Position numbers and translations under genes: made by a program
Shown here: piece after piece, positions 3,043-34,893 of the stretch
How positions within the stretch are numbered: the first letter of the stretch is position 1
How the letters are laid out: every line of letters begins with the position of its first letter
Notes under the pieces: generated by a model
Seen by the model: the letters and a program-made list of their open reading frames with translations, nothing else
Database searches by the model: none
Told to the model about the DNA's origin: nothing
Assembly: GCA_964016885.1 (NCBI GenBank)
Contig: OZ024755.1
Span: 992,001 to 1,056,000, forward strand
Length of the DNA: 64,000 bases
Direction: 5' to 3'
Source of the DNA: Eledone cirrhosa
Taxonomy: Eukaryota

Positions 3043-3080
3043 CCTTTACCGGTTTCGCAGTTCTTCTGCTTTTCAAAAGG
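3043..3080 (-). ncRNA. Minimal type-I hammerhead ribozyme motif (U3-A8 variant)
   Basis: Minus strand reads CCTT-TTGAAAA-GCAG(AAGAA)CTGC-GAAAC-CG-GTA-AAGG. Stems I and II pair, stem/loop III is the palindrome ACCGGT, and the cleavage triplet is GUA. Confidence 0.75.
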
Positions 3081-3205
3081 TGAGTTGAGATGGAGGGTCT
3101 GTGGTTTTTCTCACATCTGTATATATATATGTATTTATATATATATGTATATGTATATATATGTATATGTATATATATATATATATATATGTATATATAT
3201 ATGTA

Positions 3206-3755
3206 TAAGAGGAATCAAATGCTGTGTGCAGGAGAGGCGTTTGCGTTGGTATGGACATGTGATGCGTATGAAGGATGACAGCTGCATAAAAAGGTGCAGA
3301 GCACTAGAAGTCGATGGAAACCGCGAAGTGGGGAGACCCAAGATGACCTGGGATGAGGTGACCTTACCCAATTACACCTCTCAAAGGCGATGACACACGA
3401 CCGTGACCTCTGGCGTCACGCAGTAATACAGAGTACCCGACCTCCCATGGGTACAAGCTGAAGCATATAGACAATATGCGCCCCCCCCCCCCACTGCAAG
3501 GGAGGTGCCACGGCAAAAAAGCACCCAGCCCACACTGTAAAGTGGACGTGTAGGCGCCACGAAAAAGCACCCAGCACTCACTGTAAATGAGGTTGGTGTT
3601 AGGAAGGGCATCCAGCTGTAGAAATCAAGTCAAATCAGTTCCTGTATGAGCAAGGCATGGTCAGCCGACCAGACACTGCCCACAACAGGACAACCCGTCT
3701 AACCCATGCTAGCGTGGAAGAACGGACGTAAAACGGTGATGATCATGATGATGAT
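3206..3755 (+). mobile_element. 3' fragment of an RTE/BovB-like LINE including 3' UTR and (ATG)n tail
   Basis: Encodes RRLRWYGHVMRM...GRPKMTW. Closely similar to the reverse complement of 38595-38990. Confidence 0.85.
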
Positions 3756-4670
3756 ATATATATATATATATATACACATATATATATATATATACTCATA
3801 TATATATATATATATACACACATACATATATATATATGACCCTCCCAAAGTATAACAATATATATATATACACATATATATATATATACACACACATATA
3901 TATATATATATACACATATATATATATATATACACATATATATATATATATACATATATATATATATATACACATATATATATATATATATATATATATA
4001 TATACATATATATATCTACACATATATATATATACACATATATATATATATATACATATATATATATATATACACATATATATATATATATATATATATA
4101 TATATATACATATATATATCTACACATATATATATATATGTATATGTATATGTGTATATATGTATATGTATATATATGTATATATATATATATGTATATA
4201 TATATATGTATATGTATATATATATATATATATGTATATGTATATATATGTATATGTATATATATGTATATGTATATATATGTATATATATGTATATGTA
4301 TATATATGTATATATATGTATATGTATATATATGTATTTATATATATATGTATATATATATATATATATGTATATATATATATATATGTATATGTATATA
4401 TATGTATATATATATATATGTATATATATATATATATGTATACATGTATATGTATATATGTGTATATGTATATGTGTATATATATATATATGTATATATA
4501 TATATGGAGGCACATGGCTTAGTGGTTGTGAGTTCAATTCTCAGACCGGGTGATGTGTTGTATATATATACATATACATATATATAGATATATATACATT
4601 TATATATACATATATATAGATATATATACATATATGTAGATATATATACATATATATATATATATAAAGA
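3756..4670. repeat. (TA)n microsatellite with a CA-to-TG polarity switch near 4130; contains a SINE head fragment at 4505-4561
   Basis: Direct inspection. Confidence 0.93.
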
Positions 4671-31400: not shown

Positions 31401-34263
31401 ATTACTAAAATGACTCTAAAATCGTTAAAACGGGACATAAAGGACTAAAATGACACTAAAATTGCTAAAGCGGCATCATAAATGACTAAAATGATACTAA
31501 AATTGCTAAAACGGCATCATAAATGACTAAAATAACTCTAAAATGGCTAAAAATGGCTTCATAAATCACTAAAATGACTGTCAAATGGCTAAAACCGCAT
31601 CATCAATGACTAAGATCACTCTAAAAGGGCTAAAACAGCATCATAAATGAAGAAAATGACACAAAAATGGCTAAAACTGCATCATTAATGACAAAAATGG
31701 CTAAAACGGCATCATAAATGACTAAAATGACTCTAAAATGGCTAAAACAGGACCATAAATGACTAAAATAACTCTAAAATGACTAAAACGGCATCATAAA
31801 TGACTAAAAGGACTCTAAAATGGCTAAAACAGGACCATAAATGACCTAAAATAACTCTAAAATGACTAAAACGGCATCATAAATGACTAAAATGACACAA
31901 AAATGGCTAAAACGGCATCAGAAATGACGAAAATGTCTCTAAAACGGCTAAAACGGCATCATAAATGACTAATATGACTGTATAATGGCTAAAACGGCAT
32001 CCCAAATGACTAAAATGACACTAAAATGGCTAAAACGGCATCTAAAGTACTAAAATGAATCTAAACTGGCTAAAGCGGCATCATAAATGACTAAAATGAC
32101 TCTAAAATGGCTAAAACGGCATCATAAATTACTAAAATGGCTAAAACCGCATCATAAATGACTAAAATGACTCTAAAATGGCTAAAACGGCATCATAAAT
32201 GACTAAAATGGCTAAAACGGCATCATAAATGACTAAAATGACTCTAAAATGGCTAAAACGGCATCATAAATGAAGAAAATGACACAAAGATGGCTATAAT
32301 GCATCATGAATGACAAAAATGGCTAAAACGACATCATAAATTACTAACATGACACTAAAGTCTCTAAAACGGCATCATAAATGACTAAAATGACTCTAGA
32401 ATGGCTAAAAAGGCATCATAAATGACTAAAATGGCTAAAACGGCATCATAAATGACTGAAATGACACTAATACAGCTAAAACGGAATAATAAATTACTGA
32501 AATGACTCTAAAATAGCTAAAACTGCATCATAAATGACTAAATTGACTCAAAAATGGGTAAAACTGCATCATAAATGAAGAATATGACACTAAAATGGCT
32601 ACAACTGCATCATGAATGACAAAAATGGCTAAAACGGCATCATAAATAACTAAAATGACACTAAAATGGCTAAAATGGGATCATAAATGACTAAATTGAC
32701 TCTAGAATTACTTAAACGGCATCATAATTGACTAAGATGACTAAAACGGCGTCATAAATAACTGAAATGACTCTAGAATAACTATAACGGCATCATAAAT
32801 GACTAAAATGACTAGAAAATGGCTAAAACGGCATCATAAATGACCAAAATGGCTAAAACGGCATCACCAATGACTAAAATGACTCTAAAATGGCTAAAAC
32901 GGCATCATAAAGGACTAAAATGGCTAAAACGGCATCATCAATGAATAAAATCACTCTAAAATGGCTAAAACGGCATCATAAATTGCTAAAATGACTCTAA
33001 AATAGCTAAAACGGCATCATAAATGACTAAAATGATACTAAAATTGCTAAAACGGCATCATAAATGACTAAAATAACTCTAAAATGGCTAAAATGGCTTC
33101 ATAAATCACTAAAATGACTGTCAAATGGCTAAAACCGCATCATAAATGACTAAGATCACTCTAAAATGGCTAAAACAGCATCATAAATGAAGAAAATGAC
33201 ATAAAAATGGCTAAAACTGCATCATTAATGACAAAAATGGCTAAAACGGCATCATAAATGACTAAAATGACTCTAAAATGGCTAAAACAGGACCATAAAT
33301 GACTAAAATTACTCTAAAATGGCTAAAACTGCATCATAAATGACTAAAAGACACTAAAATAGCTAAAACGCCATCTTAAAGTACTAAAATGACTCTAAAA
33401 TGGCTAAAACGGTATCATAAATGACTAAAATGACTCAAAAATGGTTAAAACGGCATCATAAATGAAGAAAATGACACAAAAATGGCTAAAACTGCACCAT
33501 TAATGACAAAAATGGCTAAAACGGCATTATAAATGACTAAAATGAAAATAATATGACTAAAACGGCATCATAAATCACCAAAATGATACTCAAATGGCTA
33601 AAACGGCATCAGAAATGACTAAAATGACTCTAGAATGGCTAAAACGGCATCATAAATGACTAAAATAACTAAAATGGCATCATAAATGACTGAAATGACT
33701 CTAGAATGGCTATAATTGCATCATAAATGACTAAAATGACACTACAATAGCTAAAACGGCATCATGAATGACTAAAATGACTCTAAAATCCCTAAAACGG
33801 GACAATAAATGACTAAAATTACACTAAAATGACATAAGCGGCATATTAAATCACTAAAATTACACTAAAATGGCTAAAACTGCATCATAAATGACTAAAA
33901 GACACTAAAATAGCTAAAACGCCATCTTAAAGTACTAAAATGGCTCCAAAATGGCTAAAACGGTATCATAAATGACTAAAATGACTCTAAAATGGCTAAA
34001 ACGGCATCATAAATGACTAACATGACACTAAAGTCTCTATAACGGCATCAGAAATGACTAAAATGACTCTAGAATGGCTAAAAAGGCATCATAAATGACT
34101 AAAATGGCTAAAACGGCATCATAAATGACTAAAATAACTAAAACGGCATCATAAATGACTGAAATGACTCTAGAATGGCTATAATTGCATCATAAATGAC
34201 TAAAATGACACTACAATAGCTAAAACGGCATCATGAATGACTAAAATGACTCTATAATGGCTA
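16460..34263 (+). repeat. Satellite array, forward-orientation block with about 0.91-kb and 0.66-kb higher-order repeats
   Basis: The diagnostic variant CGGGACATAAAGG recurs at about 16492, 17402, 18269, 19844, 21681, 24909, 26847, 28417, 29328, 30237 and 31431. Confidence 0.96.
20620..20819. other. Assembly gap (200 N)
   Basis: Run of N inside the satellite. Confidence 1.
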
Positions 34264-34551
34264 ATGTATATACATATATATATATATATGTATATATATA
34301 TATATATGTATATATATATACATATATACATATATATATTATATATACATATATATATATGTATATATATACATATATATATATATGTATATATACATAT
34401 ATATATATATATATATATGTACACATATATATATATATATATACATAAGTAAGATGTATGGTAGGTCGTATGTGAATCGCGATGATCACGTCTGACCTAC
34501 CAAATATGTGACGGTAGCTAGTTAAGCTCTATGCGTATACGCAGAGCAGAA

Positions 34552-34893
34552 ATATTAGTGAAAAAGAACGAAGGAACTATTATGACATTATAACAAGTTT
34601 ATTGCCGACAGCCGTTTCGTCCGACCACATGGTGGGACTTATCAAGGCATATAACATGTGATTGTAAGATCATTATCTACATCAACGTATCACTCAAGGC
34701 TAGCAGTTTGAAATTGTGGTATATACCACAATTTCAAACTGCTAGCCTTGAGTGATACGTTGATGTAGATAATGATCTTACAATCACATGTTATATGCCT
34801 TGATAAGTCCCACCATGTGGTCGGACGAAACGGCTGTCGGCAATAAACTTGTTATAATGTCATAATAGTTCCTTTGTTCTTTTTCACTAATAT
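34552..34893. repeat. Near-perfect 342-bp palindrome with no spacer, each arm carrying a hammerhead motif
   Basis: Centred on GGTAT|ATACC at 34722/34723. The right arm runs into (TA)n. Confidence 0.95.
34796..34842 (+). ncRNA. Minimal type-I hammerhead ribozyme motif (U3-A8 variant; mirror copy at 34603-34649 on minus)
   Basis: Reads TGCC-TTGATAA-GTCC(CACCATGTGGTC)GGAC-GAAAC-GGCT-GTC-GGCA, followed by AATAAA. Confidence 0.8.

What the first reader, a model, noticed from the sequence alone, without database searches (positions are those of the whole stretch)
3043..34842. Two unrelated hammerheads both carry the U3-A8 compensatory core swap
The cores UUGAAAA (3043-3080) and UUGAUAA (34800-34806) replace the canonical C3-G8 tertiary pair of CUGANGA with U3-A8. 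C3-G8 pairing is established, and U3-A8 is a known but uncommon natural variant. A double change that preserves pairing in two otherwise unrelated elements argues for selection rather than decay. Standard CUGANGA searches would miss both.
Basis: partly seen in the sequence, partly recalled or inferred. Interest (0 to 1): 0.7.

Follow-up and report, generated by a model that had tools for sequence, protein, structure and literature searches.

The report
Penelope hammerheads repeatedly swap core pair
Two unrelated jumping-gene families in this animal genome carry a predicted self-cutting RNA motif whose core C-G pair is replaced by U-A; that swap is already published, but here it is common and sister families differ by it several times over, which likely means selection keeps the motif able to cut.

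Summary
Both motifs are real type I hammerheads with U3-A8. Site 1 is on the minus strand, and site 2 has a mirror twin in a 171-bp palindrome. Each is a truncated end of a Penelope-like retroelement (PLE), from two distant lineages: about 25% RT identity and no DNA similarity.

U3-A8 is the family consensus, not decay: family A 6,298 of 6,323 copies with no C3-G8, family B 100 of 100 listed. It is not uncommon here, since eight family groups carry it. Three sister pairs differ by the double swap (B/V, E/M, and G/G' at 88% identity). A protein tree rejects one clade of U3-A8 families in B's lineage (p-AU 2e-6). No family fixed for a mismatch, G3-C8 or A3-U8 was seen. This supports selection on the pair in the master elements; the two window copies are probably inert.

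U3-A8 is published in natural hammerheads (PMC3088659) and in Schistosoma PLEs (PMC4209133), and this scan noted it before on other DNA. The repeated switching on a tree is the increment. Cleavage was not tested, and one mutational scan found only G3-C8 rescued.

The parts
2910..3119 (-). Solo pseudo-LTR of PLE family A (Neptune-like by motif), lying in (TA)n; no ORF in the window
   Evidence: ORF linkage in other copies; no PLE protein hit in window
3043..3080 (-). Type I hammerhead of family A: stem I 4 bp, core 3076-3070 (U3 3076, A8 3071), stem II 4 bp, palindromic stem III, predicted cut after A3047
34552..34893 (.). 171-bp perfect inverted repeat (1 mismatch): 3' end of PLE family B (Nematis-like by motif) joined head-to-head to its inverted copy, between (TA)n tracts
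34796..34842 (+). Type I hammerhead of family B: core 34800-34806 (U3 34800, A8 34805), stem II 4+3 bp, self-complementary stem III, predicted cut after C34838
34603..34649 (-).

Best explanation
The two motifs are hammerheads in the pseudo-LTRs of two distant Penelope-like retroelement families, each fixed for U3-A8, and the 3-8 pair differs between sister families several times in this genome, likely because selection on the transposing master elements keeps a pyrimidine-purine pair needed for predicted dimeric self-cleavage. SHOWN: family consensus, link to RT plus GIY-YIG ORFs, double differences between sisters, non-monophyly of U3-A8 families in B's lineage, no family seen fixed for a mismatch. 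INFERRED: transcripts with tandem pLTRs pair two palindromic stem IIIs and cut at GUA/GUC; switches run by two transitions through a short-lived U3-G8 wobble or C3-A8 state; the window copies themselves are inert by-products (a solo pLTR, and a palindrome whose 169-pair hairpin would bury the ribozyme). NOT SHOWN: any cleavage, expression, or the direction of change.
For: Family A: 6,323 matches with positions 3, 7, 8 free; 17 not U at 3 (9 C, 5 G, 3 A), 8 not A at 8 (2 G, 3 C, 3 U), 0 C3-G8. Family B: 100 of 100 listed of 124 are U3-A8 while neutral position 7 varies. ORF links: A in L184 (direct pLTRs flank the ORF), L185, L186 (Pfam RVT_1, GIY-YIG); B in L065, L061. Same-shape genome-wide patterns (hits / reversed control): C3-G8 12,718/34; U3-A8 excluding C at 10.2 1,105/130; U3-G8 208/70; C3-A8 315/70; G or A at 3 with C or U at 8 169/265. 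Sister pairs: B/V pattern first 100 of 2,123 = 41 U3-A8, 59 C3-G8, 0 mismatched; G/G' first 100 of 1,537 = 90 U3-A8, 8 C3-G8, 2 mismatched, pLTRs 88% identical (199 of 225 aligned); E 97 of first 100 U3-A8 versus M mostly C3-G8. Tree of 15 proteins: B groups with C3-G8 families K, T, V (98/99), E with C3-G8 family M (100/100), 3 changes, one clade of U3-A8 families rejected at p-AU 2.3e-6. Four families reached through their ORF rather than their core (T, V, N2, C) all have a paired 3-8. The active dimer fold lies within 1.4 (A) and 0.7 (B) kcal/mol of the dimer minimum. Literature passages: single changes at 3 or 8 abolish and a double change partly restores cleavage of a PLE hammerhead (PMC11167929); U3-A8 natural and reported active in vitro (PMC3088659).
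Against: No activity data. [quoted passage not shown] Ribozyme mutants did not affect insertion by an anole PLE in vitro (PMC11167929). Monomer folding energies are unremarkable (z -0.7 to -1.0). The order inside the B/K/T/V group is unresolved: B as the earliest branch is only weakly rejected (p-AU 0.018, hypothesis named after seeing the tree), which would cut 3 changes to 2. There is no root, so gain and reversion cannot be told apart. Most families were found by patterns that fix the rest of the core, and only the first 100 of 208 and of 315 mismatch hits were seen. In family A the dimer minimum adds a competing U3-A17 pair.
Confidence: 0.75

Rival explanations
1. U3-A8 is a low-activity, tuned-down core: selection keeps pairing but tolerates or favours slow cleavage, so that full-length tandem RNA survives as template, with the PLE protein assisting the cut. 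This overlaps with the best explanation and differs on activity level.
For: Low activity of all region mutants except G-C in PMC9901934; protein-assisted cleavage and unprocessed RNA as main substrate in PMC11167929; low activity of PLE hammerheads in PMC4209133; competing U3-A17 pair in family A; the largest dispersed family counted, A, carries U3-A8.
Against: No rates were measured. C3-G8 sisters are as successful: V outnumbers B in the first 100 listed.
Confidence: 0.35
2. One ancient U3-A8 ribozyme, inherited from a common PLE ancestor or moved between elements by pLTR exchange; the C3-G8 families are reversions or other modules, so sites 1 and 2 are not independent origins.
For: Three of three ORF-linked families of A's lineage carry U3-A8; D, E and B carry it in the other lineage; the tree has no root.
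Against: Each U3-A8 hammerhead resembles its C3-G8 sister in the surrounding pLTR (B/V score 52 against shuffle maximum 36; G/G' 88% identical), while A and B share nothing. So the change happened in place. Even under this reading the pair changed compensatorily at least twice.
Confidence: 0.15
3. Neutral drift under A+T-biased mutation in ribozymes that no longer matter; the double change is chance hitch-hiking in a few master elements.
For: C-to-U and G-to-A are both transitions towards A+T in a window of about 32% G+C; cleavage was dispensable for insertion in vitro in one PLE.
Against: Single-change states should then outnumber double ones among families. None was seen fixed in about 17 family groups. 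A rough chance of both sites changing, given that one does, is 0.20 x 0.20 x 0.06 for the three sister pairs (the pairs were noticed because they differ, so this overstates the case).
Confidence: 0.08
4. Post-insertion decay of CUGANGA copies.
For: None found.
Against: 0 of 6,323 family A matches are C3-G8; 0 of 100 listed in B. No variant at 3076 or 3071 reaches 5% in contigs of two public runs of the best-matching organism.
Confidence: 0.01

Closest known systems
Hammerheads in pseudo-LTRs of metazoan Penelope-like elements, including the U3-A8 variant of Schistosoma mansoni Cercyon elements (Cervera and De la Pena 2014, PMC4209133; parts 1-2 of 4 read, 2 of 3 supplements searched)
   Same: Type I topology, short palindromic stem III implying dimers, location in pLTRs, mostly solo truncated copies and close opposite-strand pairs, the same U3-A8 covariation (about 1,300 hits against about 2,000 canonical in S. 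mansoni).
   Different: No bulge between positions 9 and 10.1 in A and B, and a 6-8 nt stem III rather than the minimal form. Here U3-A8 occurs in two distant PLE lineages and a retrozyme-like family and is placed on a protein tree with sister-pair switches; I saw no such analysis in the parts read.
Natural U3-A8 core covariants (Perreault et al. 2011, PMC3088659; passages read)
   Same: The same compensatory swap, described as natural and previously shown active in vitro.
   Different: Described there among rare variants; here it is the consensus of families with thousands of copies.
PAc Poseidon element hammerhead of Anolis (PMC11167929; passages read)
   Same: A pLTR hammerhead whose 3-8 pair is needed for cleavage and can be partly rescued by a double change.
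   Different: Canonical C3-G8, and the tested rescue was G3-C8, a state not seen above background in this genome.
Animal non-LTR retrozymes (PMC7229834, passages; 10.64898/2026.07.22.740005, part 1 of 5)
   Same: Families G/G' (about 320-bp unit) and a 466-bp tandem repeat elsewhere in this genome fit this class.
   Different: The two window elements belong to ORF-bearing PLE families, not tandem retrozymes.

Membership tests
Type I hammerhead ribozyme | Three helices in type I order around the core, with GAAA and a UH cleavage site | tested here: met
Type I hammerhead ribozyme | Literal consensus CUGANGA | tested here: not met
   UUGANAA in both; a published natural variant. Rfam score below gathering for site 2, no hit for site 1
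Type I hammerhead ribozyme | Watson-Crick pair between positions 3 and 8 | tested here: met
   U3-A8 in 6,298 of 6,323 (A) and 100 of 100 listed (B); double differences between sister families
Type I hammerhead ribozyme | Self-cleavage | not testable with these tools
   needs an in vitro assay
PLE-associated dimeric hammerheads | Short self-complementary stem III allowing a dimer fold | tested here: met
   active dimer -18.9 against minimum -20.3 (A); -36.3 against -37.0 (B); family A monomer +0.7 kcal/mol
Penelope-like elements (EN+) | Single ORF with RT followed by C-terminal GIY-YIG endonuclease in full-length copies | tested here: met
   A: Pfam RVT_1 2.5e-7 and GIY-YIG 3.5e-5. B: no Pfam hit in L065; RT and GIY-YIG motifs read by eye; relative T has a weak GIY-YIG hit, 7.6e-4, below the curated cut-off
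Penelope-like elements (EN+) | Pseudo-LTR direct repeats carrying the hammerhead, with inverted 5'-truncated copies | tested here: met
   direct pLTRs around the ORF in L184 (A), L304 (V), L187 (K), L182 (E); inverted copies in the window and many loci; B's ORF-to-hammerhead link is by shared 3' region in L065 and L061
Penelope-like elements (EN+) | Insertion into (TA)n microsatellites | tested here: met
   3' ends run into (TA)n in the 30 family A loci shown and at both window sites; described for PLE clades in PMC8557442
Neptune clade (family A) / Nematis clade (family B) | Placement with named reference elements in an RT tree | not tested
   No reference sequences were held. The labels rest on linker motifs: CX4CxxC in A against passages of PMC8557442; B's assignment is recalled
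Non-LTR retrozyme | Head-to-tail tandem short units without an ORF | tested here: not met
   window elements are a solo pLTR and an inverted pair; both families have ORF-bearing copies

The most novel reading that the evidence does not exclude
The catalytic 3-8 pair of PLE hammerheads toggles between C-G and U-A again and again within one genome, crossing a low-activity valley each time by two transitions and never settling on a mismatch or on the G-C pair that rescues best in vitro. This is comparative in vivo evidence that self-cleavage is selected during Penelope transposition, and it supplies natural near-isogenic pairs (G/G' at 88% identity, B/V) to measure what the swap costs.
Probability: 0.55. 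Interest if true: 0.5.

Novelty: new member of a known kind. Interest (0 to 1): 0.3.

Why it matters
The swap itself is known, so two more examples matter little. The wider pattern bears on an open question: PMC8557442 calls hammerhead function in EN+ PLEs unclear and raises the idea that the ribozymes merely parasitise the elements, and PMC11167929 found cleavage dispensable for insertion in vitro. Repeated compensatory change at a catalytic-core pair among transposing lineages argues that the core is under selection in vivo. In practice, CUGANGA-only surveys would miss roughly half of the family groups seen here (8 of about 17).

Tried and rejected
Rfam scan of the whole window at E up to 1: the 150 of 316 rows shown were mostly microRNA-model matches to TA repeats and palindromes, with no hammerhead among them.

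Linking family C' to the ORF beside it in L208 and family F2 to the ORF in L213: not supported; those ORFs have other 3' ends, so C' and F2 were left off the tree. Row L180p, used in the first tree, was dropped as a possibly mixed locus. The AU test under the C20 mixture model did not finish; the tests reported use LG+G4.

A C3-G8 family with family A's stem III: 61 hits (control 3), mostly one family with a poorly pairing stem II and no PLE ORF hit in 10 loci; unresolved.

Expression: no RNA holder listed. Runs X5 and X6 of other organisms gave only a few low-depth contigs and are not used. The protein atlas did not answer. The first dimer energy for B used a slice one base too long and was redone.

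Przybilski and Hammann 2007, Lunse et al. 2017 and Martick and Scott 2006 are not held; I saw only their citations, and the first two may already give U3-A8 rates or surveys of core variants in PLEs. One supplement of PMC4209133 could not be searched, and bioRxiv supplements are closed.
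Full report
OBSERVATION. Both motifs are in the sequence. Site 1 reads on the minus strand: stem I 3080-3077, core UUGAAAA 3076-3070, a 4-bp stem II, GAA, the palindrome ACCGGU, A at the cleavage site, and stem I 3046-3043. Site 2 reads on the plus strand, 34796-34842, core UUGAUAA at 34800, with an identical twin on the minus strand (core start 34645); the region is a 171-bp inverted repeat with one mismatch. A descriptor with positions 3 and 8 free finds these 3 motifs in the window and 3 in total over 40 shuffles. Rfam gives site 2 a sub-threshold Hammerhead_1 match (19 bits, gathering 34) and site 1 none.

WHAT THE ELEMENTS ARE. The window lies in a 3.0-Gb genome. Both motifs belong to dispersed young repeat families: the best full-length matches are 97-99% identical. 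Family A: the window copy is a solo pLTR of about 210 bp ending in (TA)n. Other copies carry an inverted partner at the same 5' point or extend upstream into an ORF with RT and GIY-YIG domains (Pfam); in L184 the ORF is flanked by direct pLTRs. Family B: copies extend 5' to an ORF that ends 2.7 kb before the ribozyme in both L065 and L061; its RT and GIY-YIG motifs were read by eye and Pfam gave no hit. This anatomy matches Penelope-like elements as described in PMC8557442 (passages). The two proteins share about 25% identity over 141 residues (E 0.09) and the pLTRs nothing above shuffle. I call A Neptune-like from its CX4CxxC linker and B Nematis-like from recall; neither label was tested against references. 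No PLE ORF lies in the window.

Family A: 6,323 matches with 3, 7 and 8 free (control 0); 17 are not U at 3 and all of these keep A8; 8 are not A at 8 and all of these keep U3. That leaves 6,298 U3-A8, 9 C3-A8, 2 U3-G8, 14 other and 0 C3-G8. Family B: 124 matches, of which the 100 listed are all U3-A8 with position 7 U or A. Decay of a canonical family is refuted. These counts do not themselves show selection, because copies inherit the master's state and then mutate. The informative unit is the family.

GENOME-WIDE PICTURE. Patterns of one shape (core, G, 7-14 nt, CGAAAC, 0-4 nt, GT) gave: C3-G8 12,718 (control 34; the first 100 are mainly a 466-bp tandem repeat and family K); U3-A8 with non-C at 10.2, which excludes most of A and E, 1,105 (control 130); U3-G8 208 (control 70); C3-A8 315 (control 70); purine at 3 with pyrimidine at 8, 169 (control 265). 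The recognisable rows among the first 100 mismatch hits were single mutants of paired families, some in local duplications; I saw no family fixed for a mismatch. These patterns miss bulged or long-stem-II forms, so they are lower bounds, not a census. Family-level tallies, counted by eye from listings that start on the largest contigs: E 97 U3-A8, 2 C3-A8, 1 U3-G8 of the first 100 of 2,112; G group 90 U3-A8, 8 C3-G8 (all the short-loop subfamily G'), 2 mismatched of the first 100 of 1,537; C' 83 of 87 U3-A8; F group 95 of the first 100 of 213; D 13 of 14 rows; N2 21 of 21 motifs in 19 of 20 loci. That makes eight U3-A8 groups (A, N2, F, B, D, E, C', G) against at least nine C3-G8 groups (466-bp repeat, K, V, T, M, C, G', and two more seen).

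REPEATED SWITCHING. A pattern shared by B and its relative V gave 41 U3-A8 (B type), 59 C3-G8 (V type) and 0 mismatched in the first 100 of 2,123. B's protein is 65% identical to V, 59% to K, 55% to T (all C3-G8) and 45-48% to the U3-A8 families D and E. A tree of 15 query-anchored proteins (665 columns, LG+G4) puts B with K, T, V at 98/99 and E with the C3-G8 family M at 100/100; it needs 3 changes; one clade of all U3-A8 rows is rejected (p-AU 2.3e-6), as is B plus E and one clade of all C3-G8 rows. An earlier 17-row tree under a mixture model also gave 3 changes. Limits: B as earliest branch of its group is only weakly rejected (p-AU 0.018, named after the tree was seen), so 2 changes remain possible; 3 rows had no assigned ribozyme; there is no root. 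The flanking DNA shows the change happened in place: B/V and E/M align above shuffle, and G/G' are 88% identical over 225 aligned bases. In A's lineage the state looks old instead: N2 (RT about 58% identical) and F3 (45%) also carry U3-A8 and the same stem III.

HOW IT LIKELY WORKS. Shown: anatomy, consensus, covariation between families. Inferred: in tandem pLTR-ORF-pLTR transcripts two palindromic stem IIIs pair to give the active dimer. That fold is -18.9 kcal/mol for A (dimer minimum -20.3, monomer +0.7) and -36.3 for B (minimum -37.0), in line with the dimer model of PMC4209133. Cleavage would trim the precursor RNA. Only C-G and U-A are seen at 3-8; they are joined by two transitions, which may explain why G-C, the swap that rescued in vitro (PMC9901934; PMC11167929), is absent. 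The window copies are probably inert: one is a solo pLTR, and a transcript through the other would form a 169-pair hairpin.

AGAINST. Nothing was assayed. PMC9901934 (passages) reports low activity for all mutants of this region except the G-C swap in a type III construct, while PMC3088659 (passages) says U3-A8 had been shown active in vitro, citing a paper I could not read. PMC11167929 (passages) found cleavage unnecessary for insertion in vitro. In family A, U3 can also pair with the cleavage-site A.

PRIOR KNOWLEDGE. U3-A8 in nature: PMC3088659. In PLE hammerheads: PMC4209133, about 1,300 hits in S. mansoni, with two such rows in its supplement. Searches for hammerhead with U3-A8 returned only that paper (related searches). 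I found no phylogenetic treatment of the switch in those searches, but three key papers were not held. Earlier notes of this scan report the same variant in this and other genomes (read after my analysis).

VERDICT. Real, a known variant in a known setting, and common in this genome. The modest increment is evidence of repeated compensatory switching between sister families. Interest 0.3; new member of a known kind.

Noticed in passing
U4C is mentioned as a low-activity viroid variant in PMC3088659; here it is a PLE family consensus.
   Followed up: partly
window 52205-52294, minus strand; 62283-62318: Decayed pLTR of a canonical-core family with a broken hammerhead, and a short piece of the same family's 3' end.
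   Followed up: partly
window 10532-34264: A 24-kb satellite with a unit of about 41 bp whose orientation flips near 16450, forming a giant inverted array.
   Followed up: no
L355-L359 and L348-L354: Families G (U3-A8) and G' (C3-G8): units of about 320 bp, tandem in some G loci, with a 12-nt near-palindromic stem III, 88% identical; no sense-strand ORF hit upstream in the 12 loci fetched. The closest natural pair for an assay.
   Followed up: partly
L082-L101: A 466-bp tandem repeat with a canonical hammerhead in each unit, making up most of the first 100 C3-G8 hits; retrozyme-like.
   Followed up: no
L304-L311: The commonest V subfamily has a G-U pair at 10.1-11.1 instead of the conserved G-C.
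   Followed up: no
window 3080-3081: About half of family A depth in two public runs carries a two-base variant that shortens stem I to 3 bp.
   Followed up: partly
window 37637-37731, 43667-43747, 57102-57225: Other short perfect palindromes that score as microRNA-like hairpins, probably inverted repeat ends.
   Followed up: no
window 3210-3470 and 36188-40222: Fragments of a non-LTR retrotransposon reverse transcriptase near site 1 and two diverged copies of an element about 2.8 kb apart.
   Followed up: no
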